From a virus (taxonomy: Duplodnaviria > Heunggongvirae > Uroviricota > Caudoviricetes): a stretch of 64,000 nucleotides of DNA. The position numbers and the translations under genes are program-made. The stretch covers positions 38,070-102,069 of IMG/VR virus record IMGVR_UViG_3300012933_000331; one strand, written 5' to 3'. A model generated the notes under the pieces. That model was not told the origin of the DNA and made no database searches. It worked only from the letters and a program-made list of their open reading frames with translations. Below are positions 37,529 through 48,805 of the stretch, in pieces. Positions within the stretch are counted from its first letter, which is position 1. Each line of letters starts with the position of its first letter.

Positions 37529-37613
37529 GTACATTTGAAATCAAACTGCTAATTTTGGGCACTACTATGCTTGGTGCTGGAATGATGTGGCCTGGTAGTA
37601 TCCTGGGAAGGGT

Positions 37614-37949: not shown

Positions 37950-37976
37950 TATAATATAGGCTGATTTGGAGATATT

Positions 37977-38177
37977 ATGGCAGGCTATTCACGCGACTTT
38001 TTAATTGATGCCTTCATGAGCCGTTACATCAAATGTACCTTGATTTCAATCGAGAGTCTTGTACGGCTAGAACAAATGGCAAATGATCTTTATGATCGAG
38101 TAGGTCGCGATAGCTTTCGTACTTATGCTAGCTTAGATGCTACAGCACTTCGAGTCTATAAAAACAGTCTTGAATGA
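37977..38177 (+). CDS. Hypothetical protein (66 aa).
   Basis: Track ORF; promoter TGATATAAT upstream. Confidence 0.35.
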   Translation: MAGYSRDFLIDAFMSRYIKCTLISIESLVRLEQMANDLYDRVGRDSFRTYASLDATALRVYKNSLE

Positions 38178-38490
38178 TCGTGTTCTTTACTGTATAATTA
38201 GTTCTTTAAATAATATAATGGCCCGTTTGCATCACTGACTTGCTCCCTAATGAGTTATATGCTTCGTAAAATGCGATTACCAAGGTAGTTGGTGGTAATT
38301 GTGGTTGTCTAACTTGAGGACTGTCGTCCAAGAGTCATAAGACTATATGAGCCACTTAGGGGTGGCCCTCATATATTAGCGTAATTGACGGTTCGGTTAA
38401 CTGGGCGGAAATCCAGTTGCCGTTTCGGTAGGTTTGACGGCCTGCGAAAAGCCATGCGTCAACATGGTAATATTGATTATGCTAATATAT

Positions 38491-38672
38491 GGGTCGGTAG
38501 CTTAACGTGGTTAAAGCGCAAATCCGGACTGTTCCTCCCTTCAGACAACGATCACCCTGCCAACCCTGCGCAACAGGTGTTCACGGTGACTAGCTCTGGG
38601 CTGATTTGCAATATACGCTTGTGGGAAACAGAAATTTTAGAGAAGTTGGTTCGAGGCCAACCTGACCCACCA
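38491..38672 (+). ncRNA. tRNA-like RNA of 182 nt. It has a perfect 7-bp acceptor stem, a D-arm, a T-arm and a CCA end, but the anticodon region is replaced or interrupted by a ~110-nt insertion. Either an intron-containing tRNA or a YrlA-type tRNA-mimic.
   Basis: Acceptor gggtcgg/ctgaccc; D stem gctt/aagc; T arm gttgg-ttcgagg-ccaac then a-cca. A candidate anticodon stem caaat/atttg (519-523 with 604-608) encloses an 80-nt insert, followed by a 36-nt 'variable' segment. The locus 38190..38800 has a promoter and no credible ORF. Confidence 0.45.
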
Positions 38673-38837
38673 TATTTAAACAGCCTGGCGTGGCCAGCGG
38701 TAACGAGACTGTGGCTCCGGTGAATGTCCACCTTGTTATGTCGCAGTAACAGACTGTTTAAATATGGGTTTAAAAATTTACACTTGTGGTAGTTGTGCTT
38801 TTCGAGTATAATTACTACTCTTTGAAAGAAACACAAC

Positions 38838-38978
38838 ATGAGAGTATTTACCAAAGTAAACGGCAATTTGTTGGTGTGGGAAGTTCAAGATATGACTCCT
38901 GAACAAGCAATCAGTGCTGTTCGTGATGAACTTGGTGTAGGTCACAAATCAGTTATCTTGGCCCTTGTAAAATATTGA
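38838..38978 (+). CDS. Small protein (46 aa).
   Basis: Promoter GAGTATAAT and RBS gaaagaaac are upstream. Confidence 0.35.
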   Translation: MRVFTKVNGNLLVWEVQDMTPEQAISAVRDELGVGHKSVILALVKY

Positions 38979-39256
38979 CTTGATTGTGCAGCTTAAACAC
39001 TGTATAATAGATACTTATTCAGCGATAGTTCCGACACTAACATAGGACTTCGCAGATAGATCAGAACAATGTGGGCGGGAGTATGCCAATTAGTGAAACA
39101 CTGTTAATTCAGTGGGTGTATGGTGAAACAGATGCACTGGTCGAGACCCTCAGATTACCAGCTCTGAGCTAACAAAAAGGTTACAGATTTCTGATCTTGC
39201 TGCCACCGACAGATCTTCATATCGGGGAGATTTCGCACTATTCTAAAAAGTGTTAT

Positions 39257-39330
39257 CTCGGTGTAGTGAAATGGCATCACCCGTGCTTTGGGAGCATGAA
39301 GCGCAAGTTCGATTCTTGCCATCGAGACCA
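39257..39330 (+). tRNA. tRNA-Pro (TGG).
   Basis: Acceptor ctcggtg/catcgag; anticodon loop tttggga; T loop ttcgatt; CCA. Confidence 0.7.
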
Positions 39331-39701
39331 TATTGTTGTGGCCTTTGCTAGATTCCGGTTCAGTCTCGGAGCTTTACAAGAAGAAGTGGCCTTGCTTTCT
39401 AGATAAGCATTGTCTATACCTTGAGCTTAATATATATCAAGAAGTAATTGATCTATGTAAAATTAAGCCGATGCCTTAGCGGGTGTGGTAGTAAACAAAG
39501 GCTACAACAATATGGTAATTAAGTCTATCTCAATAGTTCAAAGTCTATATGCAGACCACATGAAGAAAACATCTTATATAACATATAAAGATGCTAAAGG
39601 TCATGAAATAGTCAGACAAGTTGTTGAGCAGTCTGTTACCTACAGTAAGTTCCCTGTGGCTGGAAACGGCAAGGGCTTATATGTAGATTTAGTAGTATAA
39701 T

Positions 39702-39785
39702 GCGTTGGTGGTGGAATGGTATACACGCTGGTCTTAGAAGCCAGTGCCGAAAGGATTGAGAGTTCGAGTCTCTCTCGACGCACCA
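39702..39785 (+). tRNA. tRNA-Leu (TAG), type II.
   Basis: Anticodon loop cttagaa; long variable arm; T arm gagag-ttcgagt-ctctc; CCA. Confidence 0.65.
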
Positions 39786-39791
39786 CAATTT

Positions 39792-39866
39792 GGGCTGTTA
39801 GTGATAATGGTAGCACAGGGCCTTTGCAAGGCTTAGGCGGGAGTTCGATTCTCCCACGGTCCACCA
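39792..39866 (+). tRNA. tRNA-Ala (TGC).
   Basis: Acceptor gggctgt/acggtcc with a G3:U70 pair; anticodon loop tttgcaa; T arm gggag-ttcgatt-ctccc; CCA. Confidence 0.65.
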
Positions 39867-40128
39867 AAGGAATAATATGAAATCACCAGTATACGGAGCC
39901 AGAGCTGGCAATGTTAAGTGCCGTGGCAAAAAGACAAAACTAATGTCTTGCCTTTGCTGTATGATGATTGATTTTAGATGGGACTATAAGTTCCGCAAAG
40001 CCAAAGAAGAATTTTATGAAAACACGAAAACCTAGGAACCACGTTGCACTTGCGCTGATGAAGCGTGGCGGCAGTGGTTCACATCAAAAAAGCCACAAGC
40101 AGCTTCGTGGCAAATGGAAGCGCAACCT

Positions 40129-40203
40129 GGACGTATAACTTAACGGCTAAAGTAGTGGGCTTTTAACCTACAAATCAGAGTTCGATTCTCTGTGCGTCTA
40201 CCA
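40129..40203 (+). tRNA. tRNA-Lys (TTT).
   Basis: Anticodon stem gtggg/cctac with loop cttttaa; T arm cagag-ttcgatt-ctctg; CCA. Confidence 0.7.
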
Positions 40204-40318
40204 TATTTGAGCATATTAGCAGATGGCGTTCAACCACTTGTTTAATCCTTGCAAGGCAACACGTTTACGGGAGCAAAGTACAAGTTCCAAAAGTGGATGC
40301 TAGTGTGCTCAAATATGG
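40201..40318 (+). repeat. Conserved inverted-repeat element, copy A. CCATATTTGAGCATAT, ~85-nt loop, then TAGTGTGCTCAAATATGG.
   Basis: Homologous to the elements at 46631..46740 and 47075..47137. The G/C to T/A change between copies is compensatory. Confidence 0.5.
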
Positions 40319-40325
40319 TATTTAC

Positions 40326-40417
40326 GGCTCTATAGTTTAATGGTAAAACGGCGGATTTATATCCCGTAAGCAACAGATAATTGGTTCATCTGGGTTCGAG
40401 TCCCGGTGGAGCTACCA
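40326..40417 (+). tRNA. Type-II tRNA (92 nt) with an ambiguous anticodon. It reads TAT by standard numbering, but the anticodon stem has a mismatch.
   Basis: Acceptor ggctcta/tggagct; T arm ctggg-ttcgagt-cccgg; CCA; ~22-nt variable arm. The loop tttatat does not match any canonical type-II isoacceptor. Confidence 0.45.
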
Positions 40418-40422
40418 AATAC

Positions 40423-40510
40423 GGAACACTGGCCGACCGGTTAAGGCATCAGATTGCTAATCTGACATTCAGTAATGGGTGAGTAGGTTCGATTCCTACG
40501 TGTTCCGCCA
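40423..40510 (+). tRNA. tRNA-Ser (GCT), type II.
   Basis: Acceptor ggaacac/gtgttcc; anticodon stem tcaga/tctga with loop ttgctaa; CCA. Confidence 0.7.
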
Positions 40511-40517
40511 AATTCAT

Positions 40518-40591
40518 GGTGTTTCTAGTGTAGTGGCAGCACTGCTGTCTGTGAAACAGTAAGCCAGGGTTCGATTCCCGGATTCACCCCA
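40518..40591 (+). tRNA. tRNA-His (GTG), probable. The acceptor stem has two U·U mismatches as I parsed it.
   Basis: Anticodon stem gctgt/acagt with loop ctgtgaa; T loop ttcgatt; discriminator C; a possible G-1. Confidence 0.45.
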
Positions 40592-40601
40592 AAAGGTTTT
40601 T

Positions 40602-40820
40602 ATGTCAGAAATTCAAGTATTACTAGATAAAGAAGCCAACCTAGCCAATCGTCGTAGCTTAGTGCACAAACAAATTGTGGTACTACGTGGGGAAACTCCT
40701 CCAGCGTGCTGGGGTAACGATGATTGCTCAACCAATATTATGTCACAATGCCCTTGGCGCATTGACTGTGACGGTCATGAAGCCGAACAGTGGCAGTCAA
40801 TTAATAGCTGGCAATTCTAA
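40602..40820 (+). CDS. Cys-rich hypothetical protein (72 aa).
   Basis: Track ORF lying between tRNAs. Confidence 0.35.
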   Translation: MSEIQVLLDKEANLANRRSLVHKQIVVLRGETPPACWGNDDCSTNIMSQCPWRIDCDGHEAEQWQSINSWQF

Positions 40821-40895
40821 GCCGATGTAGCTCAGTTGGTAGAGCAGCGGATTGAAAATCCGTGTGTCACTGGTTCGACCCCAGTCTTCGGCACC
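40821..40895 (+). tRNA. tRNA-Phe (GAA).
   Basis: D arm gctcagttggtagagc; anticodon loop ttgaaaa; T loop ttcgacc; CCA. Confidence 0.7.
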
Positions 40896-41076
40896 AAGTA
40901 TTTATAAGTTTGACCCTAAGCTGGAGTAGTTCTCTAGTCCTTTACCAACGGCCTAACTAGCCTAGTAGTTCTATAGGCCAACGCCTCGGCTCATACTCGA
41001 CCGTAGTTGGGGTTAAACTTATAAATATAGACTTGATTGTACAGCCTATTTGTTGTATAATTATCTTTTACGCAAT

Positions 41077-41151
41077 ACTGCTATCGTCTATCGGTTAGGA
41101 CACCGGGTTTTCAACCCGATAAGAGGGGTTCGACTCCCCTTAGCAGTACCA
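41077..41151 (+). tRNA. tRNA-Glu (TTC).
   Basis: Acceptor actgcta/tagcagt; anticodon loop ttttcaa; T arm agggg-ttcgact-cccct; CCA. Confidence 0.6.
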
Positions 41152-41156
41152 CACAC

Positions 41157-41231
41157 ACTGGGGTAGCTCAGCGGCAGAGCACTCGCTTGATAAGCGATAG
41201 GTCGAGGTCTCGGAATCCTCCCTCAGTACCA
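41157..41231 (+). tRNA. tRNA-Ile (GAT).
   Basis: Acceptor actgggg/cctcagt; D arm gctcagcggcagagc; anticodon loop ttgataa; CCA. Confidence 0.6.
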
Positions 41232-41333
41232 GATAACTTCTCCCGAAGTTACAGTCCAGGACACGCGGACTCAAAAACGATGTGGAAGTGGGTGGAAGCC
41301 CCACACTTTTACACACAACACACAGGAGATACT

Positions 41334-41564
41334 ATGAGTAAATCACCTTTTGAAATTCGTCTTGAAATCCTCAAGATGACCGCAGAGCTTATGCAAGCTG
41401 AGTATGAATCCAACATGGAGTTCATTACCGAAATGCAAGAAAACCTGGCTGACAAGGGAATGAACACCCAGGCTATGATTGAAAAATTCATGCCCAAGCC
41501 TTTTGACTTCCAAGAAATGCTGGAAAAGTCCAAGAAGTTTTACGAGTTTGTAAATGCTAAGTGA
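41334..41564 (+). CDS. Hypothetical protein (76 aa).
   Basis: RBS caggagat precedes the ATG. Confidence 0.45.
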   Translation: MSKSPFEIRLEILKMTAELMQAEYESNMEFITEMQENLADKGMNTQAMIEKFMPKPFDFQEMLEKSKKFYEFVNAK

Positions 41565-41568
41565 TTTA

Positions 41569-41709
41569 ATGAAGAAACTTCAGGATGTGTTTAGACCATA
41601 CACATTTGAAGATTTCGTCAAAGATCAAAACCCACAAACTTGGTCAGAATTAAAAGAACTAGAGCGTACTTGGTATCGTGCCAAGGACGACTTTAAGAAA
41701 ATGTATTAA
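41569..41709 (+). CDS. Small protein (46 aa).
   Basis: Tight spacing with the preceding gene. Confidence 0.35.
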   Translation: MKKLQDVFRPYTFEDFVKDQNPQTWSELKELERTWYRAKDDFKKMY

Positions 41710-41779
41710 CGCGGGGAGTCAGGGTAGAGGCAAGCCTCATAAGCTCCGCCTGGAAGGTTCGAGTCCTTCCCCCGCAACC
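41709..41779 (+). tRNA. Degenerate tRNA-like element. Good T arm, acceptor and CCA with a CTCATAA (Met-like) anticodon loop, but a truncated D region. Possible tRNA-Met pseudogene or an unusual tRNA.
   Basis: T arm gaagg-ttcgagt-ccttc; 3' ccccgca-a-cca; only 71 nt; anticodon stem has 3 bp. Confidence 0.3.
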
Positions 41780-42200
41780 AATACGGCCTTCCAGCACTCT
41801 AGCGAGCTGCTTAGTGAACTGGTAAAATCGGCACTTGGCCTGCCACCATATTTTGACAATAGATACGATTGCTTATCTGAGGAAACTCGCCGGTGTATCC
41901 CGTCTATGTGTGGATATAAGCACCACGCTACATTGTCATTGCAGGCTTGTAAACAAATCAGTGCTAATACCACTGTCCTGCGTCCGTTGAAGCGAAAACA
42001 AGATGGGCTGCTCTCACGGGGTTTGATGTTTCCTGACACAAAAATAACACACACTTAAAGCTACTGTTTGCTTATGGCTACAGACTATGCCCCCTTAGTG
42101 GATCTTAAACAGCGTCAATGTCTTCAGTGTCAACGAAATGTCACGCCGGAGAATGTAACCGGCACTAATACCAGTGCAGCTGCGATGATTAAGATCGCAC

Positions 42201-42275
42201 GGACACGTAGCACAGCGGTAGTGCAGCAGGTTCATATTCTGTTGGTCGCTGGTTCAAATCCAGCCGTGTCCACCA
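42201..42275 (+). tRNA. tRNA-Met (CAT).
   Basis: Acceptor ggacacg/cgtgtcc; anticodon loop ttcatat; T loop ttcaaat; CCA. Confidence 0.7.
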
Positions 42276-42369
42276 CAAAAAATTCAGACTTGTTGTTGAA
42301 ATCAAAAGTCTGTATAATTAATGTTTTAGCGGCGAGAACAATAGTTCGCTGAACAGATTCTGAAAAATG

Positions 42370-42401
42370 AACTTGTTCTCGCAGTTATTATTTGATATAA
42401 T
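42370..42401 (+). promoter_or_regulatory. sigma70 promoter (TTGTTC, 17-nt spacer, TGATATAAT) for the Y-RNA-like element.
   Basis: Read directly from the sequence. Confidence 0.45.
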
Positions 42402-42407
42402 AGATAC

Positions 42408-42725
42408 TTAAATTAAAGAACTTAGTGTAGTGATTAGATTTCAGGTACTTCATACTATGAAACTACCGTTAAATTCGCAACATTCAGCAGGTCTTCGTTG
42501 CTCCTGCCTAAGTTTAAGGTAAGCGTTCTTTGATAGGTAAACGCTTCCAGCCCTGAACTAGAGTGTTCTCTCTGAGTTCTTTAATTTAGGTATAGTGAAA
42601 GAAACAGTTACTTCACTTCTAATGACGATGTCGGTGGTTCGAGTCCACCTAAGCTGGTCTCTAGCTTATAGCTCAGTTGGTAGAGCGCGCAAATCTCTGT
42701 TTCGCCTAGTTCTTACTTATTTACA
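42408..42725 (+). ncRNA. Candidate Y-RNA-like (YrlA-type) ncRNA immediately upstream of rsr. It has a long terminal helix and a tRNA-like module.
   Basis: An 18-bp helix forms between 42409-42426 (taaattaaagaacttagtg) and 42573-42590 (ctgagttctttaattta). A T-arm/acceptor-3' module ggtgg-ttcgagt-ccacc-taagctg lies at 42627..42656. It is followed by a tRNA 5'-half-like segment (tagctta-ta-gctcagttggtagagc…) at 42668..42700. No credible ORF; rsr starts at 42735. Confidence 0.4.
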
Positions 42726-42734
42726 AGGAATCAA

Positions 42735-44045
42735 ATGTCTTCGATCAATCGTGTTGTGCGTCAGCCTGCTACAAATTCAGTGGGTACGCAAGTATCCCAA
42801 ATTAATGCAGAACGTCAGCTAAAGCGTGTAACCATGGCAGCAATGTTGTGGGAAAACCAGTTCTATATGGACGGTAAAACTCATGCCGAATTGGTCAAAG
42901 ACCTTGTAGCCAAAGTCGCTCCTGAAAAGGTTTCGGCTCTGGCTGAGGAAGCCCGTACAAAGTTTAAACTTCGTCACATTCCTCTGTTGCTTGTACGCGA
43001 ACTTGCTCGAAACGGAAAAATGCAAGCACAAGCCCTAACCAATGTTATTCAACGTCCAGACGAAATGTCTGAATTTTTGAGTATCTATTGGAAGGAAGGC
43101 AAAACTGCTGTATCGAACCAAGTTAAAAAAGGCCTTGCAGCTTGCTTTAACAAGTTTTCGGAATACCAGCTTGCCAAATGGAATAAGAATTCATCCGCAA
43201 TCAAATTGCGCGATGTAATGTTTATCTCCCACCCTAAACCGCAAAATGCCGAGCAAACAGCGCTGTTCCAGCGCATTGCGGCTGATACACTTGAAACTCC
43301 CGACACATGGGAAACTCAATTATCTAGCGGCGCAGATAAGTGTGGTACGTTTACTCGTCTTATGACTGAGAAGAAGCTAGGTGCTCTAGCTTTCTTGCGT
43401 AATCTGCGTAATATGCGCGACAGTGGTGTAGCGGATTCCCTTATCCGCAGTTATGCACAAACTGTTGACGTTAGCAAAGTCCTGCCTTTCCGCTATATTG
43501 CGGCGGCACGTATTGTTCCACAATACGAGGATATGCTAGAACAAATGATGTTTCGCAGCCTAGCGACACATCAAAAAATTCCTGGAAAGACTGTTCTGTT
43601 GATCGACGTAAGTGGCTCAATGTTCGGTACCAGAATTTCCTCAAAATCAGATCTAGATCGCTTCGATGCGGCAGCAGCACTCGCTATGCTGTGCCGTGAA
43701 GTTTGTGAGGAAGTCGAGATTTATAGCTTTAGTAATAATGCTGTGCGCGTTGCACCTCGTCGTGGATTTGCTCTCCGCGAAGCTATTTCAAGCTCTCAAA
43801 GTCACGGTGGAACTGCTCTTGGCAATTCCATGAAGACTGTAAACAGCGCGAGTTCATATGACCGTTGCATTGTGTTTACTGATGAGCAAAGCTATGATCG
43901 CCCAGGTGCTCCTCGTGGTAAAGGTTACGTTATCAACGTAGCTGCCTACGAAAACGGAGTCAACCACCAAGCATGGACTGAGATCAATGGTTTCTCAGAA
44001 GCTGTAATTGATTACATCCAGGCATTGGAGCAGGAAGCTGCTTAA
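42735..44045 (+). CDS. rsr: Ro60 ortholog Rsr (TROVE plus vWA domains).
   Basis: C-terminal vWA domain with MIDAS motif VLLIDVSGSM…GGTALGN…CIVFTDEQSY, closely matching the Ro60 pattern (DVSxSM…GGTD…IVFTDNE). The N-terminus is TROVE-like. Confidence 0.7.
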   Translation: MSSINRVVRQPATNSVGTQVSQINAERQLKRVTMAAMLWENQFYMDGKTHAELVKDLVAKVAPEKVSALAEEARTKFKLRHIPLLLVRELARNGKMQAQALTNVIQRPDEMSEFLSIYWKEGKTAVSNQVKKGLAACFNKFSEYQLAKWNKNSSAIKLRDVMFISHPKPQNAEQTALFQRIAADTLETPDTWETQLSSGADKCGTFTRLMTEKKLGALAFLRNLRNMRDSGVADSLIRSYAQTVDVSKVLPFRYIAAARIVPQYEDMLEQMMFRSLATHQKIPGKTVLLIDVSGSMFGTRISSKSDLDRFDAAAALAMLCREVCEEVEIYSFSNNAVRVAPRRGFALREAISSSQSHGGTALGNSMKTVNSASSYDRCIVFTDEQSYDRPGAPRGKGYVINVAAYENGVNHQAWTEINGFSEAVIDYIQALEQEAA

Positions 44046-44428
44046 CCTACTTACCCACGACCCAAGCCTGTAGCCAGTCAGGTGTTATAAAGGTGGGGCT
44101 CTAAGCTAAGGGCTTAGAATAGCATATGGTGCACTAGTACAGTTACTTCTATTTGGTTTGAAAACACACTGTACTTAATTATTCCTATGTTATTCTAAGC
44201 CCTTTGCGCTTTTATCGGCTACTTCTAGACTCTTAATCTAACCAAAACACCGATAATACTTATTCAAGGGCTATTTTATTATTGCTTTGGCGATAGTTAC
44301 AGTTTCATCAAAAGTTCGATTCTTTTATTACGAGCCTATTCGTTATTCGCCAAGTGGTATGGCACCGGAAGCATATTCCGGGAAAACTCTGTAGCGATTT
44401 ATTCCAAGCACCTTACAAGGAAATTACA

Positions 44429-44677
44429 ATGAGTGATGGTGGCAAAGGCTCAAAGCCTAGACCCTTAAGCGTAGCAAACGAAGAATACGCAGCACGCTGG
44501 GACGCAATCTTTGGTCGCGATAGGCTAGAAGATTCGGAAACAGACAAAACAACTCGTAATAATAGCGAAACACAAGAAGCCTTGGCACAAGGCAAGTCGG
44601 TTCCACTTTCAAGTCTGCCTGAACTACAAGAAATTGTATGCAAAGGCTTAGCTGATGGTACACTCTTCTTAAGTTAA
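44429..44677 (+). CDS. Hypothetical acidic protein (82 aa).
   Basis: RBS aaggaaat precedes the ATG; start trimmed. Confidence 0.4.
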   Translation: MSDGGKGSKPRPLSVANEEYAARWDAIFGRDRLEDSETDKTTRNNSETQEALAQGKSVPLSSLPELQEIVCKGLADGTLFLS

Positions 44678-44681
44678 ATAT

Positions 44682-44755
44682 ATGTCCCTGGTGTAATGGC
44701 AGCACGTTGGTCTCCAAAACCATTGGTCAGAGTTCGAGTCTCTGGGGGCGTGCCA
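44682..44755 (+). tRNA. tRNA-Trp (CCA).
   Basis: Anticodon loop ctccaaa; T arm cagag-ttcgagt-ctctg; CCA. Confidence 0.65.
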
Positions 44756-44806
44756 AAATTTAGACTTGTTGTTGATTTCAAAACTTGATATAATTATTCT
44801 TTAAAC

Positions 44807-44892
44807 GGAGAAGATGTTCTAATGGTAGGACAGCGGATTGTAAATCCGTGGCCTCTAGAGGCAAGTGGGTTCGATCCCCTCATTCTCCACCA
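44807..44892 (+). tRNA. tRNA-Tyr (GTA), type II.
   Basis: Acceptor ggagaag/attctcc; anticodon stem gcgga/tccgt with loop ttgtaaa; 15-nt variable arm; CCA. Confidence 0.7.
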
Positions 44893-44899
44893 GATTTAT

Positions 44900-44983
44900 G
44901 CGACTGTGGTGGAATGGTATACACAGCAGACTTAAAATCTGCCGCTTAATTGATTAAGGGTTCAAGTCCCTTCAGTCGTACCA
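44900..44983 (+). tRNA. tRNA-Leu (TAA), type II.
   Basis: Acceptor gcgactg/cagtcgt; anticodon stem gcaga/tctgc with loop cttaaaa; CCA. Confidence 0.7.
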
Positions 44984-45432
44984 GTTTAGTCTAGTAAGGA
45001 AAGTAAACGGAGAATGGGAAGCGATAGAGAGCTGAATCGAATCGCGGATACCTCACCGGCTAGACATTTCATATGGTCTTAAAGTGTTCATGGACGCACA
45101 CAGCACTGTCACTGCTGTAGATGGGGATCGTTACCCCATAAGACCGCCAAATTTATCAGTACCTATCATAGATAAGTAAGTTACGTCAAGCTGTATATGC
45201 TTATAAGCGTCTAATAAGATTTACTATACTGATTATAGAACCTGCCTTAGGTCCGTGCCGTTACGGTTAGAGCGTCCGTAACTCATCCGTTGGATACGAT
45301 AAGTCCAAGCTGGAACCGTAACCAGCACTATTATTTTAGCGTATTACCATCCATTATAAACAAGCAGGAGAGATACCTGTTGTCCAGCGATCACATCAAC
45401 GGGGTAAGGGGTAGTGTGCTAAACTAATATAT

Positions 45433-45507
45433 TCCACAGTAGCACAGCGGTAGTGCAAACGACTGTTAATCGTTTGGTCATTGGTTCGATCCCAGTCTGT
45501 GGAGCCA
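45433..45507 (+). tRNA. tRNA-Asn (GTT).
   Basis: Acceptor tccacag/ctgtgga; anticodon stem aacga/tcgtt with loop ctgttaa; CCA. Confidence 0.7.
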
Positions 45508-45636
45508 AATATAGTCTTAGTGAATAAATCAGTTACTTCTTTTAATGCTTATAAAAACGATGCCCGTTCGATTCGTGGCAAGGCCGCTGGTGCATGGGCC
45601 AATATCTGATTTTACTGTTCTAGACTTTTCTTTTGT

Positions 45637-45710
45637 TGGGGGTTAGTGAAATGGTATCACACGGGATTTTGATTCCCTTGTCACAGGTTCGATTCCTGTA
45701 CCCTCTGCCA
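45637..45710 (+). tRNA. tRNA-Gln (TTG).
   Basis: Anticodon loop ttttgat; T arm acagg-ttcgatt-cctgt; CCA. One mismatch at acceptor positions 1-72. Confidence 0.55.
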
Positions 45711-45718
45711 CACTTAAT

Positions 45719-45795
45719 GCGTTCGTAGCATAACTGGATAATGCCCTAGCCTACGAAGTTAGAAATTGGGAGTTCGAATCTCTCCGGACGCTCCA
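45719..45795 (+). tRNA. tRNA-Arg (ACG).
   Basis: Acceptor gcgttcg/cggacgc; anticodon loop ctacgaa; T arm gggag-ttcgaat-ctctc; CCA. Confidence 0.7.
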
Positions 45796-45803
45796 CATAT
45801 ATC

Positions 45804-46274
45804 ATGCACAAATTTAACTTACAAGAAGTCAAAGACTTCATTAATGCTCAGTCAGCTGAAACCAAGGTTTACCTTGGCGCTGATAGCGAACGTGTTAAAG
45901 TTAATGGTGTATGGCACGCTGACTATACTCTAGCAGTTGTTGTTCACATTGACGGTAATCACGGTTGCAAAATCTTTGGTTCAGTAACTCGTGAACGCGA
46001 CTTTGACCAAAAGGTGTCGAAACCAGCACTTCGCTTAATGCAAGAAGTATATAAGGTTTCAGACCTATTTCATGAACTTTCAGATGTACTACAAGATCGT
46101 CACGTTGAAGTTCACCTAGATATTAACCCCAACCTAATGTACGGTTCTAGCTGTGTTGTTCAACAAGCTATTGGCTATATCAAAGGTACTTGTAATGTTG
46201 ATGCTCAAGTAAAGCCCAACGCTTTTGCAGCAAGCTATGCTGCTGACCGATTAAAATTTGTATTGGCTAACTAA
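45804..46274 (+). CDS. Hypothetical protein (156 aa).
   Basis: Track ORF. Confidence 0.5.
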   Translation: MHKFNLQEVKDFINAQSAETKVYLGADSERVKVNGVWHADYTLAVVVHIDGNHGCKIFGSVTRERDFDQKVSKPALRLMQEVYKVSDLFHELSDVLQDRHVEVHLDINPNLMYGSSCVVQQAIGYIKGTCNVDAQVKPNAFAASYAADRLKFVLAN

Positions 46275-46479
46275 AATGTCCGACCGCTTCGACCTAGAAC
46301 AAAATATCATGCAATGCTGGAATGTTTGTGATGACATTCAGCTGATGCTTGATATGTATGATAAGCTGGACGAAGATGCCAAGCAAAACTATTTGATCGG
46401 ACTCAAACAAATGTATCAAATGAAGTTTGAGCGATTATGGGACAACTTTGAAGGTTGTATTCGTCGTAAACAAATTTAA
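46258..46479 (+). CDS. Hypothetical protein (73 aa).
   Basis: Track ORF overlapping the previous stop. Confidence 0.4.
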   Translation: MYWLTKMSDRFDLEQNIMQCWNVCDDIQLMLDMYDKLDEDAKQNYLIGLKQMYQMKFERLWDNFEGCIRRKQI

Positions 46480-46480
46480 T

Positions 46481-46555
46481 GTAGGTGTGGCGGAACGGCT
46501 ACGCGTCGGATTGCAAATCCGTTCTATGCAGGTTCGAGTCCTGTCACCTACTCCA
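46481..46555 (+). tRNA. tRNA-Cys (GCA).
   Basis: Acceptor gtaggtg/cacctac; anticodon loop ttgcaaa; T loop ttcgagt; CCA. Confidence 0.65.
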
Positions 46556-46557
46556 AT

Positions 46558-46633
46558 GCCGGTTTAGCTCAGTTGGTAGAGCAACTCCCTTGTAACGAGA
46601 AGGTCGCGTGTTCGATTCATGCAACCGGCACCA
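46558..46633 (+). tRNA. tRNA-Thr (TGT).
   Basis: Acceptor gccggtt/aaccggc; D arm gctcagttggtagagc; anticodon loop cttgtaa; T loop ttcgatt; CCA. Confidence 0.6.
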
Positions 46634-46740
46634 TATTTTAGCATATTACTTGCCACTTAATGCATATATGTGGAGTAACGCGCGCACACCTTCCACGGGT
46701 AATCAGGAGCACCTGACATGGGTAGTATGCTAAAATATGG
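46631..46740 (+). repeat. Conserved inverted-repeat element, copy B. CCATATTTTAGCATAT, ~75-nt loop, then TAGTATGCTAAAATATGG. Its right arm is the 5' end of the tmRNA acceptor piece.
   Basis: Covaries with copy A (40201..40318). Identical 12- and 14-mers recur at 47077..47088 and 47122..47135. Confidence 0.5.
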
Positions 46741-47090
46741 TTGTATGAAGCAGACAGAAACAGGTTCTGGACGCGGGTTCGAGTCCCGCCAGCTCCACCA
46801 TAAGCGTATTTAAGGGGGTTCGAGTCCTCTCTATAAAACTGGTAGTTGTAAGTAATACGCTTTTGATGGGGCTGCATTTGGTTTCGACAGGGCAAAGAGT
46901 AAACAAGTAGACAACTCGGCAATGTAGAAGCCGTAGGGTTAGGGATTCCTGGCCGCAGAAGCAAAACAAAAATAAACGCAAACGATACACAGTTCGCATT
47001 GGTAGCCTAACAGCCGCCTAGGGTTTTGTCAGGTTTTCCTCGTAACAGAATAAACCTGACCCTAAACCAACATAAATTTTAGCATATTGA
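46721..47090 (+). ncRNA. ssrA: Circularly permuted (two-piece) tmRNA gene. The acceptor piece (…T arm, CCAGCUCCACCA) is at ~46721..46800, an intervening segment at 46801..46867, and the coding piece (GGGGCUG…tag ORF…) at 46868..~47090.
   Basis: The 3' hallmark ctggacgcgggttcgagtcccgccagctccacca ends at 46800, upstream of the 5' hallmark ggggctgcatttggtttcgacaggg beginning at 46868. Acceptor pairing ggggctg/cagctcc keeps G3:U70. The resume codon and tag GCA AAC GAT ACA CAG TTC GCA TTG GTA GCC TAA (46978..47010) encode (A)ANDTQFALVA, preceded by …gcaaaacaaaaataaac as in E. coli tmRNA. No T arm or acceptor follows the tag. A putative P2 pairing joins 46722-46735 with 47077-47088. Confidence 0.7.
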
Positions 47091-47149
47091 ACCACATATG
47101 GCAATCAGAGCCGGACTGTCGTAGTATGCTAAAATTTATGAAGGAAACC

Positions 47150-47737
47150 ATGAAATACACAAACATTCTCGACCCTAAATTGTTTCAGTCGGACAAATAC
47201 TCAAACAATTTCACCAAGCCAGTCGCACACATTCATGAGTTTTATCTTAGCGGGCCAATTTGTGACGCTGAAGAATACATTGAGTGGTTTGACGTTATTC
47301 GTAACGCATCAGCAACTGACACAATTCGCATTTACATCAATAGCCCTGGTGGTGACCTATTTACTACACTACAGTTCTTGCGAGTAATGTCGGACACAGA
47401 TGCTACTGTTGTTTGTAGTGTAGAAGGCGCTTGTATGAGTGCAGCTACCATGATCTTCCTACACGGTCATAGTCAAGAAGTTACTCCACATAGCTTGTTT
47501 ATGTTTCACAACTATAGTGCCGGAACATTTGGCAAAGGCGGCGAAATGTACGATCAGCTGCAGTTTGAACGTACTTGGTCAGAAAACTTTATGACTGAAG
47601 TGTATCAAGGCTTTTTGACACCTGAAGAAATCTCCTCAATGATGCACAACAAAGACATTTGGATGGGTTCTGAAGAAGTTGTCCGTCGTCTAACAGCCAT
47701 GCAAGCACAGCGTGAAGCTGAAGCAGCACAAGAATAA
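47150..47737 (+). CDS. clpP: ClpP-like serine protease (S14 family).
   Basis: …IYINSPGGDLFTTLQFL…VEGACMSAATMIFLHGH… matches ClpP signatures (INSPGG, GxAxSxAxxI). RBS aaggaaa precedes the ATG at 47150. The gene lies immediately downstream of the tmRNA. Confidence 0.65.
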   Translation: MKYTNILDPKLFQSDKYSNNFTKPVAHIHEFYLSGPICDAEEYIEWFDVIRNASATDTIRIYINSPGGDLFTTLQFLRVMSDTDATVVCSVEGACMSAATMIFLHGHSQEVTPHSLFMFHNYSAGTFGKGGEMYDQLQFERTWSENFMTEVYQGFLTPEEISSMMHNKDIWMGSEEVVRRLTAMQAQREAEAAQE

Positions 47738-47778
47738 AACATGGCTAAACCCTCTGCGCAAGTACGGTTTAGTTCTCT

Positions 47779-47870
47779 GGAAAGTAATGCAGCGGGGTTG
47801 GTCCTGCGACTGGCCTTGAAAACCAGGTTCTCAGAAATGGGATGGGGTTCGACTCCTCTGCTTTCCGCCA
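47779..47870 (+). tRNA. tRNA-Ser (TGA), type II.
   Basis: Acceptor ggaaagt/gctttcc; D stem gcag/ctgc; anticodon loop cttgaaa; long variable arm; CCA. Confidence 0.6.
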
Positions 47871-47876
47871 TAAGAC

Positions 47877-47945
47877 AGCACACTGGGTGTGGCACATCCA
47901 TTAAATCAAGCTGGTTTGAGTCCGGCAGCCACAGTGTGCTTTCTT
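47877..47945 (+). ncRNA. Long irregular hairpin (9 bp, bulge, 4 bp) capped by a T-arm-like stem-loop gctgg-tttgagt-ccggc, followed by ttcttat. Either a tRNA-like minihelix or the operon terminator.
   Basis: agcacactg (877-885) pairs with cagtgtgct (932-940), and tggc (890-893) with gcca (928-931). A T-run follows. Confidence 0.3.
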
Positions 47946-48269
47946 ATGGCTATTTCATTTAAAAACATCAAAGACCCTAAACTGGGGATAACTGATACAA
48001 TCACATTTGGTAAACTAAAAGGTTGCCGTGTATGCGATGTAGCCCAAGATCATTACGAATACTTGATTTGGGCTGAAAAGTCCGGTTACGTTAAGTTTCA
48101 AACCGAGGCTATTGAGCTGATTCAAGAGCAGGCTAGTTTTGCCCGTTGGCAGATACATGAAGCCGAAGAAGTTGCCCCATACATGGATGGCAACAAATAC
48201 GAATACTTGGCAGAAATTGCCAGTCGTCAAGACTATGACACAAGTTTTGAAGATGATGTTCCATTTTAA
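47946..48269 (+). CDS. Hypothetical protein (107 aa).
   Basis: Track ORF 47889..48269 trimmed to the first ATG after the hairpin. Confidence 0.45.
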   Translation: MAISFKNIKDPKLGITDTITFGKLKGCRVCDVAQDHYEYLIWAEKSGYVKFQTEAIELIQEQASFARWQIHEAEEVAPYMDGNKYEYLAEIASRQDYDTSFEDDVPF

Positions 48270-48270
48270 T

Positions 48271-48346
48271 GCGTGCTTAGCTCAGCTGGTAGAGCAGTTC
48301 GTTGCCAACGAACAGGTCGCAGGTTCGAACCCTGTAGCCCGCACCA
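48271..48346 (+). tRNA. tRNA-Gly (GCC).
   Basis: D arm gctcagctggtagagc; anticodon stem gttcg/cgaac with loop ttgccaa; T loop ttcgaac; CCA. Confidence 0.7.
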
Positions 48347-48370
48347 CAATTACCCTTGCGCCAAACTGGC

Positions 48371-48586
48371 CAAAATACAATGTACAAAGTCTACTGGACA
48401 AATGAAACTGGTAATGCCTGTAGTGCGGAAATACCTCAATTACAGAACACCTTAATTTACGTAGACTTATTACGCAAACAAGGTATGTTATTTGTAACAA
48501 TGGTTTCAGATTATGCTGACATGGTAGGCAAACCAGGCGCACAAGGCGCTGGTGCAGAATATACACCACAAATGTTAAACCCATGA
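48371..48586 (+). CDS. Hypothetical protein (71 aa).
   Basis: Track ORF trimmed to the ATG. Confidence 0.4.
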   Translation, partial: QNTMYKVYWTNETGNACSAEIPQLQNTLIYVDLLRKQGMLFVTMVSDYADMVGKPGAQGAGAEYTPQMLNP

Positions 48587-48801: not shown

Positions 48802-48805
48802 ATTT

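What the first reader, a model, noticed from the sequence alone, without database searches (positions are those of the whole stretch)
42367..44045. Rsr (Ro60) ortholog with an upstream Y-RNA-like element containing a tRNA-like module
The ORF at 42735..44045 has a Ro60-type vWA/MIDAS region (VLLIDVSGSM…GGTALGN…CIVFTDEQSY) and a TROVE-like N-terminus. The 330 nt upstream have their own consensus promoter and no ORF. They can form an 18-bp terminal helix (42409-42426 with 42573-42590). They also contain a tRNA T-arm/acceptor-3' module (ggtgg-ttcgagt-ccacc-taagctg) followed 5 nt later by a tRNA 5'-half-like segment (tagctta-ta-gctcagttggtagagc) whose acceptor strand is complementary to the upstream 3' strand. 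The two tRNA halves are therefore in swapped order. Bacterial and phage Y RNAs (YrlA class) are known to carry tRNA-like domains and sit next to rsr. This looks like a divergent, permuted-looking member of that class.
Basis: partly seen in the sequence, partly recalled or inferred. Interest (0 to 1): 0.8.

Follow-up and report, generated by a model that had tools for sequence, protein, structure and literature searches.

The report
Phage Ro60 gene with Y RNAs
A phage gene for the ring-shaped RNA-binding protein Ro60 (Rsr) sits in a tRNA island with a tRNA-mimicking Y RNA just upstream and about four related small RNAs nearby; this pairing is already known from bacteria and other phages, so it is a solid but fairly ordinary new example.

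Summary
ORF 42735-44045 is a Ro60/Rsr ortholog. It passes the Pfam TROVE and Ro60-vWA cut-offs. A family profile matches Thermus phage phiRo60 at E 1.5e-41, and also Rsr and Ro60. All 13 top fold matches of its AlphaFold model are Ro60 structures. Window 42593-42712 is a YrlA-class Y RNA. Rfam YrlA matches it end to end at 35 bits (gathering score 69). In 38 relatives its fold is 92% paired, and 20 of 22 pairs show compensatory changes.

Two corrections. The "swapped tRNA halves" are the normal, published YrlA layout, not a peculiarity. The 18-bp helix does not enclose the tRNA-like module. It closes a separate conserved RNA (42404-42596) that carries its own copy of the Y-RNA 5' block.

Three more paralogous modules lie at 44108-44202, 44212-44256 and 45518-45621. 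The same YrlA variant occurs in Xanthomonas phage MET23-P3 and Caulobacter phage CcrColossus. Phage Ro60 with upstream Y-like RNAs was characterised in 2025.

Verdict: a new member of a known kind, of moderate interest. The most likely function is tethering Rsr to a host partner such as PNPase; this is inferred, not shown.

The parts
42327..42387 (+). Conserved hairpin between two promoter-like sites. The core stem pairs 42331-42341 with 42373-42383, and its 3' arm overlaps the -35 of the next promoter.
   Evidence: RNAalifold on 7 relatives gives 14 pairs, 4 of them with compensatory changes. Its role is unknown.
42373..42401 (+). Promoter-like site: TTGTTC (42373-42378), a 17-nt spacer, then the extended -10 TGATATAAT (42393-42401).
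   Evidence: Read directly from the sequence. The TATAAT is conserved at a fixed distance from the start of RNA-1 in relatives. The consensus scanner did not report it because the -35 matches only 3 of 6.
42404..42596 (+). RNA-1 (Y-a), a conserved structured RNA of about 190 nt. Its terminal helix pairs 42404-42423 with 42574-42593. It contains an internal Y-type 5' block, UAGUGAUUAGAUUUCAGGUACUUC (42428-42451). A long-range helix pairs CAGG (42442-42445) with CCUG (42552-42555).
   Evidence: MFE -58.5 kcal/mol, z -5.4. In 18 distinct homologs, 96.3% of cells are paired, against 83.5% in shuffles and at most 43% in slid controls; 18 of 34 pairs show compensatory changes. No Rfam family matches it. 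Its 5' block aligns with those of the other Y modules.
42593..42712 (+). YrlA-class Y RNA (Y-b). Layout in 5'-to-3' order:
- UAGUGAAAG motif, 42593-42601
- outer stem 5' strand GAAACAG, 42601-42607
- YUAY (UUAC), 42608-42611
- V hairpin, 42613-42625
- 2-bp anticodon-stem-like helix, 42626-42627 with 42688-42689
- variable-loop-like AUGUC, 42628-42632
- T-arm, 42633-42649
- closed acceptor-like hairpin, 42650-42668
- UA, 42669-42670
- D-arm, 42671-42686
- outer stem 3' strand CUGUUUC, 42697-42703
   Evidence: Rfam YrlA RF02553 scores 35.1 bits, E 4.8e-6, covering model positions 1-114. The clade model R1 scores 114.7 bits. Covariation in 38 homologs: 92.4% of cells paired and 20 of 22 pairs compensatory. 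The acceptor-like hairpin closes in nearly all homologs even though their sequences are unrelated.
42735..44045 (+). rsr, a Ro60/Rsr ortholog of 436 aa with TROVE HEAT repeats and a vWA domain. MIDAS residues are D291, S293, S295, T360 and D383.
   Evidence: Pfam TROVE 34.2 bits (cut-off 23), vWA_Ro60 28.4 (27.7) and VWA_2 30.1 (27). Against the PDB, phiRo60 9KOP/9L5Y scores E 1.7e-22 with the single sequence and 1.5e-41 with a profile; Rsr 2NVO scores 1.9e-6 and Ro60 1YVP 5.2e-5. The AlphaFold model has pLDDT 78.8, and its top 13 Foldseek matches are all Ro60 structures, with TM 0.68 to 9KOP.
44108..44202 (+). Y-c, a mini Y-like module. AUGGUGCACU is followed by the stem AGUACAG (44136-44142), UUACUUC, and the closing strand CUGUACU (44169-44175). 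The module is nested in a 17-bp helix pairing 44110-44126 with 44186-44202.
   Evidence: RNAalifold on 13 homologs gives 26 pairs, 12 of them compensatory. It contains an exact CAGTTACTTC at 44140.
44212..44256 (+). Y-d, a second mini module. The stem UUAUCGG pairs with CCGAUAA, enclosing CUACUUC and a hairpin UAGA-CUCUUAA-UCUA.
   Evidence: RNAalifold on 8 homologs gives 11 pairs, 4 of them compensatory. The outer stem is seen as AUCGG/CCGAU, AGCGG/CCGCU, GUGAG/CUCAC and AGCAG/CUGCU.
45518..45621 (+). Y-e, a Y-like paralog between tRNA-Asn and tRNA-Gln. It has UAGUGAAUAAAUCAG|UUACUUC, a V hairpin, a T-arm-like hairpin, and the closing strand CUGAUUU.
   Evidence: Model R1 scores 31.3 bits over the full model length. 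Orthologs lie at the same relative position in L002, L003, L004, L007 and L011, and the outer stem changes by compensatory substitutions. It contains an exact CAGTTACTTC at 45530.

Best explanation
This is a phage-encoded Ro60/Rsr ribonucleoprotein system.

Anatomy:
- The ORF encodes a compact (436 aa) ring-shaped TROVE plus vWA protein.
- A promoter at 42373-42401 most likely drives one transcript that carries RNA-1 (42404-42596), the YrlA-class Y RNA (42593-42712) and then rsr. No terminator-like site separates them.

How the YrlA-like RNA is built:
- One part is a protein-binding module. A purine-G-pyrimidine-GAA(N)G motif, the local variant of the published GNCGAAN0-1G Rsr-binding motif, sits next to a 7-bp closing stem.
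- The other part is a tRNA-like module with T-arm, closed acceptor-like hairpin and D-arm. It keeps U8, A14, G15, G18G19, C48 and the T-loop, so it should fold into the tRNA L-shape.
- Four further RNAs (RNA-1, 44108-44202, 44212-44256, 45518-45621) share the 5' block URGYG...CAG|UUACUUC and a closing stem. They are most likely additional Y RNAs with other effector modules.

Inferred mechanism, by analogy with D. radiodurans and S. Typhimurium Rsr-Y RNA-PNPase and with Thermus phage phiRo60-Yrl-PNPase: the Y RNAs dock on Rsr and tether it to a host partner. That partner could be PNPase or, through the tRNA-like elbow, a tRNA-binding enzyme. The effect would be to redirect the decay or quality control of structured RNA during infection. 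The position inside a 26-tRNA plus tmRNA island suggests the clients are tRNAs or other stable RNAs.

Shown: protein family and fold, RNA structures, conservation, covariation and paralogy.
Inferred: co-transcription, processing, Rsr binding, the partner and the biological role.
For: Protein:
- Pfam TROVE, vWA_Ro60 and VWA_2 are all above their cut-offs.
- A profile of 15 family members hits phiRo60 at 1.5e-41, Rsr at 1.9e-6 and Ro60 at about 1e-5.
- The top 13 Foldseek matches of the AlphaFold model are all Ro60-family structures.

YrlA-like RNA:
- Rfam YrlA gives a full-length match at E 4.8e-6. The same family is hit upstream of rsr on the same strand in 12 of 16 diverse relatives, at 31-54 bits, and in phages MET23-P3 and CcrColossus.
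- With model R1, 38 homologs show 92.4% of cells paired, against 67.8% in shuffles and at most 51.5% in slid controls. 20 of 22 pairs have compensatory changes, and the outer stem covaries at 7 of 7 pairs.
- The acceptor-like hairpin closes in nearly all homologs even though their sequences are unrelated.
- The layout matches the published YrlA description element by element (PMC4201824, bioRxiv 10.1101/312249).

Paralogs:
- The exact CAGKTACTTC occurs 4 times, always on the + strand and within 3.1 kb around rsr. Shuffles give 0.31 on average, and 0 of 100 reach 4.
- The 5' blocks of the five modules align with 11 invariant positions.
- Each paralog has covariation support.

Mechanistic precedent: phiRo60, the best structural match, binds two Y-like RNAs encoded upstream of its gene and forms ternary complexes with host PNPase in vitro (PMC12135203).

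No terminator-like site lies between 42404 and 42735.
Against: - The Rfam YrlA score (35 bits) is well below the curated gathering score (69). None of the relatives reaches it either.
- The published Rsr-binding motif is not matched exactly in the window. AGUGAAAG differs from GNCGAANG by C-to-U and G-to-A. RNA-1 carries UAGUGAUU.
- The tRNA-like module is missing from four close relatives (L002, L003, L006, L031) and is reduced to a bare stem in three (L007, L019, L020). It is therefore dispensable.
- The nearest cultured relative, Ralstonia phage RsoM2USA (55% identity), shows no YrlA-like hit.
- There are no expression, binding or processing data for this phage.
- The covariation alignment for the YrlA-like RNA was fitted to the model structure, which favours that structure.
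- The V hairpin as I modelled it is only 44% paired.
Confidence: 0.85

Rival explanations
1. The tRNA-like segment is a decayed pair of adjacent tRNA genes: the T-arm of one and the D-arm of the next. In a tRNA island such a pair could score by chance against YrlA models and would have no link to Rsr.
For: The element lies in an island of 26 tRNAs, many of them in tandem. Chen et al. 2014 warn that dimeric tRNAs can score as false YrlA hits. My own model does hit the tRNA-Cys/tRNA-Tyr junction at 46504-46592 with 34 bits. The Rfam tRNA model gives a weak partial match to 42591-42651 (19.6 bits, E 0.17).
Against: - ARAGORN finds no tRNA in 42276-42734, and the Rfam tRNA score is below its gathering score of 29.
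- The two 'acceptor strands' pair with each other across a 5-nt loop. The equivalent segment forms a closed hairpin of unrelated sequence in nearly all homologs.
- A 7-bp outer stem encloses the whole element and covaries at 7 of 7 pairs.
- The true element scores 114.7 bits over the full model. The tandem-tRNA junction scores 34 bits over model positions 19-104 only.
- The element keeps a fixed position and strand upstream of rsr down to about 43% protein identity.
Confidence: 0.02
2. The upstream RNAs are mainly cis-acting parts of the rsr mRNA leader. For example, Rsr could bind Y-like decoys in its own leader to autoregulate translation or stability, rather than these being free trans-acting Y RNAs.
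For: The YrlA-like RNA ends only about 20 nt before the rsr ribosome-binding site. No promoter lies between RNA-1, the YrlA-like RNA and rsr, and no terminator-like site was found. The conserved tail UUCUUACUUAUU lies between the outer stem and the ribosome-binding site. GGUAU at 42590-42594 can pair in two alternative ways (from the sequence).
Against: - Three paralogous modules lie downstream of rsr or between tRNAs (44108-44256, 45518-45621), where they cannot act as an rsr leader.
- In close relatives the YrlA-like module is deleted while rsr and its ribosome-binding site stay intact.
- In S. Typhimurium, Y RNAs lie in the same operon as rsr yet act as free RNPs. This comes from the literature (PMC4201824, PMC7790460), not from a test here.
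- The two roles are not mutually exclusive.
Confidence: 0.08
3. RNA-1 and the long-helix element at 44108-44202 are not Rsr ligands. They would be processing or stability elements of the polycistronic tRNA/ncRNA transcript, for example RNase III stems, or an unrelated class of phage ncRNA. The shared UUACUUC block would then reflect common descent or a shared processing signal.
For: Both have long, nearly perfect duplexes (17-24 bp) of the kind RNase III cleaves; that link rests on general knowledge. Their outer helices are unrelated in sequence. RNA-1's interior has no tRNA-like domain and matches no Rfam family. Its copy of the binding motif is the most divergent (UAGUGAUU). A generic scan for 'YTACWTC plus closing stem' finds as many sites in shuffled sequence as in the window.
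Against: - Their 5' blocks align with that of the YrlA-like RNA at 11 invariant positions.
- In each, CAG|UUACUUC sits on a covarying closing helix exactly as in the YrlA-like RNA.
- In Y-c the motif lies in an internal loop between two helices, the stem-bulge-stem shape described for phiRo60's Yrl RNAs.
- RNA-1 is kept next to rsr in every close relative, including those that lost the tRNA-like RNA.
- Having several different Y RNAs per Ro60 is the rule in characterised systems (PMC4201824, PMC12135203).
Confidence: 0.3

Closest known systems
YrlA RNAs (Rfam RF02553; Chen et al. 2014, PMC4201824; crystal structure in Wang et al. 2018, bioRxiv 10.1101/312249)
   Same: - Encoded next to rsr on the same strand.
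- A 5' purine-rich motif related to GNCGAAN0-1G.
- A closing 5'/3' stem and a YUAY (UUAC).
- A V stem-loop, T-arm, closed acceptor-like hairpin, UA and D-arm in the same order.
- tRNA tertiary-interaction nucleotides retained.
- More than one Y RNA per locus.
   Different: - Scores only 35 bits against the curated model (gathering score 69).
- The binding motif has U instead of C in the window.
- An invariant extension, CAG|UUACUUC, is specific to this phage clade.
- The 'anticodon-stem' equivalent is only 2 bp plus a separate V hairpin, rather than a continuous stem.
- The gene sits in a phage tRNA/tmRNA island, not in an rtcBA operon.
phiRo60 with Yrl1 and Yrl2 of Thermus phage phiLo (PDB 9KOP, 9L5Y; PMC12135203)
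   Same: It is the best sequence and fold match of the protein (E 1.5e-41, TM 0.68). It is phage-encoded, and its Y-like RNAs are encoded immediately upstream of the gene. Those RNAs are described as stem-bulge-stem with a CGAA-type motif. It provides in-vitro evidence for RNA binding and for ternary complexes with host PNPase.
   Different: - Only about 24% identity, and the window protein is shorter (436 aa against about 500).
- That paper never uses the term YrlA and describes Yrl1/2 only as stem-bulge-stem RNAs with a CGAA motif; I did not examine their sequences.
- This locus has about five modules, two of them nested in long helices.
YrlA-like copies next to the TROVE genes of Caulobacter phage CcrColossus and Xanthomonas phage MET23-P3
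   Same: They belong to the same Rsr clade (42-47% identity). They carry the same YrlA variant, including GGUG...GUUACUUC, in 2-3 tandem copies upstream of the gene (model R1 at 57-83 bits, Rfam YrlA at 30-52 bits). PMC12135203, citing Chen 2014, names CcrColossus among the phages with reported Ro60 homologs.
   Different: I did not look for the long-helix RNA-1 element there. By motif search it appears only in relatives with at least about 75% protein identity. Their genome contexts differ: a 43-kb phage and a 280-kb phage.
S. Typhimurium YrlB and D. radiodurans Yrn1 (Y RNAs that are not, or only partly, tRNA-like)
   Same: They are a precedent for a second Y RNA at the same locus that shares the Rsr-binding motif but lacks the full tRNA-like domain, as proposed here for RNA-1, Y-c, Y-d and Y-e.
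   Different: No sequence similarity was detected: no Rfam hit at E <= 10 over 42276-42760. RNA-1 is larger (186-258 nt in relatives) and is closed by a 20-24-bp helix.

Membership tests
Ro60/Rsr (TROVE plus vWA ring proteins) | TROVE domain detectable above the curated threshold | tested here: met
   PF05731 scores 34.2 bits against a cut-off of 23, E 2.2e-8, over aa 186-269. Full-length homology to the phiRo60 TROVE protein covers aa 10-432 at E 1.5e-41.
Ro60/Rsr (TROVE plus vWA ring proteins) | C-terminal Ro60-type vWA domain with a MIDAS motif (DxSxS...T...D) | tested here: met
   PF25045 vWA_Ro60 scores 28.4 bits (cut-off 27.7) and VWA_2 scores 30.1 (cut-off 27). D291, S293, S295, T360 and D383 are invariant or nearly invariant across the family alignments.
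Ro60/Rsr (TROVE plus vWA ring proteins) | Overall fold matches solved Ro60 rings | tested here: met
   The AlphaFold model has pLDDT 78.8 and pTM 0.54. Foldseek ranks 1-13 are all Ro60 structures: 9KOP TM 0.68, 2NVO 0.61, 1YVP 0.54. The moderate pTM means ring closure itself is not proven.
Ro60/Rsr (TROVE plus vWA ring proteins) | Binds Y RNA and misfolded RNA | not testable with these tools
   Needs EMSA or RIP-seq.
YrlA (Rfam RF02553) | Reaches Rfam's curated gathering score | tested here: not met
   35.1 bits against 69, with a full-length match at E 4.8e-6 on a 485-nt search. Relatives score 30-54 bits.
YrlA (Rfam RF02553) | Encoded adjacent to a Ro60 ortholog | tested here: met
   It ends 22 nt before the rsr start codon on the same strand. 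The same arrangement holds in 38 strong homologs.
YrlA (Rfam RF02553) | Conserved T-arm and D-arm with tRNA-invariant nucleotides, in the order T then D | tested here: met
   GGUGG-UUCGAGU-CCACC and GCUC-AGUUGGUA-GAGC. The T helix is 99.4% paired and the D helix 99.3% paired, with compensatory changes at 3 of 5 and 4 of 4 pairs. U8, A14, G15, G18G19, C48 and the T-loop UUCGA are read directly from the sequence.
YrlA (Rfam RF02553) | Closed acceptor-like stem-loop (AS) between the T and D arms | tested here: met
   The window has a 7-8-bp hairpin at 42650-42668 (z -5.0). Hairpins of 5-9 bp with unrelated sequences occur in most of the 20 homologs evaluated; two have only a 3-bp GGC/GCC core (L001; L005 is also weak at z -0.1), and L029 has none, with only 8 nt at that position. 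The two basal pairs covary.
YrlA (Rfam RF02553) | 5' motif GNCGAAN0-1G (putative Rsr-binding site) | tested here: inconclusive
   The window has AGUGAAAG (42594-42601), which matches 5 of 7 specified positions and differs by two transitions. Relatives have GGUGAAG, AGCGAAG and GGCGAUG. This is clearly a related motif, but it does not fulfil the published pattern in the window.
YrlA (Rfam RF02553) | Conserved YUAY before the V region, and a 5'/3' closing stem | tested here: met
   UUAC at 42608-42611, with T18, A19 and C20 invariant in the seed alignment. The outer stem 42601-42607 with 42697-42703 covaries at 7 of 7 pairs and is 94% paired.
YrlA (Rfam RF02553) | Bound by Rsr; modified by TruB and DusA | not testable with these tools
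   Experimental.
Canonical tRNA or tandem tRNA pair | A complete cloverleaf with its own acceptor stem, recognised by tRNA finders | tested here: not met
   ARAGORN reports no tRNA between 42276 and 44681. The Rfam tRNA model scores 19.6 bits, below its gathering score of 29, and matches only model positions 6-65.
Y RNA in the broad sense (stem, internal loop with CGAA-type motif, stem), applied to RNA-1, Y-c, Y-d and Y-e | Shares the Rsr-binding module with the locus's bona fide Y RNA | tested here: inconclusive
   The 5' blocks align with 11 invariant positions, and the closing stems covary. However, the motif varies (UGAU, UGCA, GCGC, UGAA), the 3' blocks align poorly at 54%, and binding is untested.

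The most novel reading that the evidence does not exclude
The phage carries not one Y RNA but a family of about five Y-type RNAs around rsr, all built on one shared Rsr-docking module (URGYG...stem|UUACUUC). Their effector parts differ: a full tRNA mimic, a T-arm-only version, two minimal hairpins, and a large multi-hairpin RNA of 190-260 nt. Two of them are nested inside 17-24-bp duplexes that may be RNase III release sites. On this reading the phage uses an interchangeable set of adaptors to point one Ro60 ring at several host targets, and the tRNA-like adaptor is expendable. All of this is wired into its tRNA/tmRNA island.
Probability: 0.4. Interest if true: 0.55.

Novelty: new member of a known kind. 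Interest (0 to 1): 0.35.

Why it matters
Ro60-Y RNA particles are conserved from bacteria to humans, yet their function in bacteria, and even more so in phages, is poorly understood.

- This locus and its roughly 80 metagenomic relatives form a large natural comparison set. The tRNA-like Y RNA is present, truncated or deleted in different members, while other Y-like RNAs persist. That could help separate the role of the Rsr-docking module from the role of the tRNA mimic.
- It shows that Rfam's YrlA model misses a whole phage clade at its gathering score. The clade alignment built here could improve annotation.
- The position inside a tRNA/tmRNA island supports the view that phage Ro60 systems act on stable RNAs or the translation machinery.

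None of this changes the established picture. It extends it.

Tried and rejected
- Megablast of 42276-44700 against 50,697 phage records found no match. The source phage is not in that collection.
- Rfam at gathering thresholds reported only tRNAs and tmRNA, with nothing in 42276-42734. The sensitive mode was needed.
- Rfam on the downstream spacer 44040-44690 gave only spurious microRNA-family hits. Those hits did flag the long hairpin.
- I first read the small hairpin before the T-arm as an anticodon-arm relic with a CUNNNAA loop. A 7-nt-loop hairpin is possible in 32 of 38 homologs, but the strict YUNNNRA pattern holds in only 11 of 38. The 5-bp version also conflicts with a strongly covarying 2-bp helix. 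I kept it as the published 'V' stem-loop.
- A D-stem-like pairing of GUGA with UUAC was considered. It is not supported, because relatives with GCGA would break it (read from the alignment).
- A generic scan for YTACWTC preceded by a 6-nt strand with a downstream complement gave 15 sites, against about 12 in shuffles, so it does not discriminate.
- Of the nine R1 hits I first took as Y-e orthologs, three (L009, L023, L017) proved to be tandem-tRNA junctions and were set aside.
- Ralstonia phage RsoM2USA, the nearest isolate, has only a tRNA upstream of its homolog and no YrlA-like hit.
- The supplementary tables of Chen 2014, which list the phages, are not held as text.
- The 3' blocks of the five paralogs align poorly, at 54% column identity.


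Full report
**Setting.** The window looks like part of a large phage genome. ARAGORN finds 26 tRNA genes between 36991 and 51476, all on the + strand, and a tmRNA. Rfam confirms the tRNAs and identifies a permuted, two-piece tmRNA at 46699-47065. The finding lies in two tRNA-free gaps of this island. No record in the phage collection is similar at the DNA level.

**The observation.**
- ORF 42735-44045 encodes 436 aa.
- The upstream 460 nt hold no credible ORF.
- The helix at 42409-42426 with 42573-42590 exists and is longer than stated. It spans 20 bp in the alignment and 24 bp in the MFE fold. The 191-nt segment folds at -58.5 kcal/mol, z = -5.4.
- The T-arm, the two mutually complementary 'acceptor' strands 5 nt apart, and the D-arm are all present.
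- The promoter has a perfect extended -10 (TGATATAAT, 42393-42401). Its -35 (TTGTTC) is weak, so the consensus scanner did not report the site.

**The protein.**
- Pfam detects TROVE, the Ro60-specific vWA domain and VWA_2, all above their curated cut-offs.
- The single sequence matches one solved protein over nearly its whole length (9KOP/9L5Y, E 1.7e-22). That protein is phiRo60 of Thermus phage phiLo.
- A profile of 15 diverse family members raises this match to 1.5e-41. It also reaches D. radiodurans Rsr (2NVO, 1.9e-6), RO60 (9NEN, 9.4e-6) and Xenopus Ro60 (1YVP, 5.2e-5).
- An AlphaFold model (pLDDT 78.8) has Ro60 structures as its 13 best PDB matches, with TM 0.68 to 9KOP and 0.61 to 2NVO.
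- The MIDAS residues are conserved.
- The protein is therefore a compact Ro60/Rsr ortholog of the phage type.
- Homologs are abundant. There are thousands in metagenomes, with more than 100 at 80-95% identity. They also occur in isolated phages of Ralstonia, Xanthomonas, Caulobacter, Brevundimonas, Microcystis and Bacteroides (crAss-like).

**The tRNA-like RNA.**
- Rfam's YrlA model matches 42601-42706 from end to end at 35.1 bits, E 4.8e-6. This is well below the gathering score of 69.
- Chen et al. 2014 define YrlA by a GNCGAAN0-1G motif, a stem, a conserved YUAY, an optional V stem-loop, the T-arm, a closed acceptor-like stem-loop, the D-arm and the returning stem strand.
- The window element has each of these parts in that order (see parts). 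The 'swapped halves' are therefore the hallmark of the family, not a deviation.

**Ruling out a tandem-tRNA artefact.** Chen et al. warn that tandem tRNAs can mimic YrlA, so I tested this directly.
- I fetched 17 viral and 64 metagenomic loci encoding relatives of the protein.
- T-loop followed by D-loop recurs upstream of rsr on the same strand down to about 43% protein identity, often in two copies. Rfam YrlA hits 12 of 16 diverse loci at 31-54 bits.
- The segment between the T and D arms folds into a closed hairpin in nearly every homolog, and the sequences are unrelated to each other.
- A covariance model built from 18 seeds scores the window element at 114.7 bits. The junction of tandem tRNA-Cys and tRNA-Tyr scores 34 bits and matches only the middle of the model.
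- On 38 strong homologs, 92.4% of cells are paired, against 67.8% in shuffles and at most 51.5% when partners are slid. 20 of 22 pairs show compensatory changes, including all 7 pairs of the outer stem.
- Caveat: that alignment was fitted to the model. The V hairpin as I modelled it is not supported (44% paired).
- The tandem-tRNA explanation is rejected.

**The binding motif.**
- The window has AGUGAAAG where the published pattern is GNCGAANG. Relatives have GGUGAAG, AGCGAAG and GGCGAUG.
- This is evidently the same motif with a pyrimidine transition, but the window does not meet the published pattern exactly.
- The clade also has an invariant extension, CAG|UUACUUC, whose UUAC is the YUAY.

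**The 18-bp helix belongs to another RNA.**
- Alignment of the upstream regions shows that 42404-42596 ('RNA-1') is a separate unit. It is present in all relatives with at least about 75% protein identity. These include four (L002, L003, L006, L031) in which the YrlA-like RNA is deleted and three (L007, L019, L020) in which it is reduced to stem plus V hairpin.
- RNA-1 is 186-258 nt long in relatives.
- Its 20-bp terminal helix has 7 covarying pairs. A long-range CAGK/MCUG helix also covaries.
- Overall, 96.3% of cells are paired, against 83.5% in shuffles and at most 43% in slid controls.
- No Rfam family matches it.
- Inside, it carries UAGUGAUUAGAUUUCAGGUACUUC. This is the same block as UAGUGAAAGAAACAGUUACUUC at the start of the YrlA-like RNA, and in both RNAs CAG pairs with a downstream CUG.

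**More paralogs.**
- The exact 10-mer CAGKTACTTC occurs four times in the 64-kb window: at 42442, 42605, 44140 and 45530. All four are on the + strand and in non-coding spacers. Shuffles give 0.31 on average, and 0 of 100 reach four.
- The site at 44140 lies in a mini module nested in a 17-bp helix at 44108-44202. That element has 26 pairs, 12 of them compensatory. The GG of its motif pairs with CC of a 3' UUCC, leaving the motif in an internal loop between two helices.
- A second mini module follows at 44212-44256, with a covarying outer stem.
- The site at 45530 lies in a roughly 105-nt module between tRNA-Asn and tRNA-Gln. It keeps a T-arm-like hairpin and has orthologs at the same place in five relatives.
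- The five 5' blocks align with 11 invariant positions. The 3' blocks align poorly.

**Comparison with what is known.**
- YrlA-type RNAs next to rsr were reported in 254 bacterial species and 22 phages in 2014.
- Jumbo-phage TROVE proteins 'with a tRNA-like partner' are noted in a 2021 review.
- phiRo60 of Thermus phage phiLo was shown in 2025 to bind two Y-like RNAs encoded just upstream of its gene and to form complexes with host PNPase in vitro.
- The same clade-specific YrlA variant, including GGUG...GUUACUUC, is present in 2-3 copies upstream of the TROVE genes of Xanthomonas phage MET23-P3 and Caulobacter phage CcrColossus.
- The core finding is therefore a new member of a known kind.
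- To my knowledge and within the searches I ran, three things are not described: RNA-1, the nesting of Y-type modules in long duplexes, and the size of the paralog family. Whether these RNAs bind Rsr is untested.

**Mechanism.**
- Shown here: a Ro60-fold protein; a YrlA-class RNA with a covariation-supported fold; four conserved, structured paralogs; and their fixed arrangement around rsr within a tRNA/tmRNA island.
- Inferred: transcription from the promoter at 42373-42401 through RNA-1 and the YrlA-like RNA into rsr, since no terminator-like site intervenes; processing into separate RNAs, possibly by RNase III in the long helices; docking of the shared 5' module on Rsr; and recruitment of a host partner.
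- The partner could be PNPase, by analogy with RYPER and phiRo60, or a factor that recognises the tRNA elbow. The result would be altered decay or quality control of structured RNA during infection.

**Confidence.**
- About 0.85-0.9 that this is a Ro60 ortholog with a YrlA-class Y RNA.
- About 0.6 that at least some of the paralogs are Rsr ligands.
- Low for any specific biological role.

Noticed in passing
window 46699-47065 and 47087-47737: A permuted (two-piece) tmRNA (Rfam tmRNA_permuted 112 bits, beta_tmRNA 105 bits, tag ANDTQFALVA) lies inside the phage tRNA island. A Clp-protease-like ORF (PF00574, E 2.7e-11) follows it directly. A phage that carries both the tagging RNA and a protease of the type that degrades tagged proteins may deserve its own look.
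   Followed up: no
window 36991-51476: There are 26 tRNA genes, all on the + strand, covering most amino acids. The ARAGORN 'tRNA-Ile (tat)' at 40326-40417 is unusually long at 92 nt.
   Followed up: no
window 42327-42387: A conserved hairpin (GCGGCGAGAACAA...UUGUUCUCGC) lies between an upstream promoter-like site (TATAAT at 42313-42318) and the promoter that drives RNA-1. Its 3' arm overlaps that promoter's -35. Four of 14 pairs are compensatory in 7 relatives. It could be a small RNA, an attenuator or an operator.
   Followed up: partly
window 44100-44118 and 44194-44202: UCUAAGC occurs twice, at 44100-44106 and 44194-44200. Both copies are complementary to GCUUAGA at 44112-44118. The base of the 44110-44202 helix could therefore switch to a short local hairpin. 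The block is nearly invariant in relatives.
   Followed up: no
window 42590-42594, 42404-42408, 42714-42717: GGUAU at the junction of RNA-1 and the YrlA-like RNA can pair with the 5' end of RNA-1 (AUACU), or through GGUA (42590-42593) with UACU just after the YrlA-like RNA. These are two mutually exclusive ways of closing the two RNAs.
   Followed up: no
loci L002, L003, L006, L031 (module absent); L007, L019, L020 (module reduced): Close relatives (84-95% protein identity) have lost the tRNA-like domain of the YrlA-like RNA or the whole RNA. They keep RNA-1 and, wherever the stored downstream sequence allowed a check, the downstream Y-like modules (L031 and Y-e in several were not checked). 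The tRNA mimic is therefore dispensable in this lineage.
   Followed up: partly
L085 673-826 (Caulobacter phage CcrColossus): The annotated tRNA-Gln (L085 673-740) overlaps a YrlA-type hit (model R1 at 675-826, 48 bits; Rfam YrlA at 708-804). Either a tRNA is fused to a Y RNA, or the annotation mistakes part of a Y RNA for a tRNA.
   Followed up: no
L016, L062, L063, L074, L080, L067, L014: Distant relatives (43-61% protein identity) carry two or three tandem YrlA-like copies upstream of rsr. L058 has a standard one-piece tmRNA about 1 kb upstream of rsr. The association of rsr with tRNA/tmRNA clusters therefore recurs.
   Followed up: partly
window 45804-46274 and 35504-36532: An RNase H-like ORF (PF04308, E 1.9e-17) lies inside the tRNA island. 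A UvdE UV-endonuclease ORF (PF03851, E 2.3e-39) lies just before it.
   Followed up: no
window 45644-45652 (tRNA-Gln) compared with 42593-42600: The Y-RNA 5' motif UAGUGAAA is identical to the U8-A9-D-arm start of the phage's own tRNA-Gln. This fits the published idea that YrlA arose from dimeric tRNA transcripts, in which parts of the first tRNA became the Rsr-binding stem.
   Followed up: no
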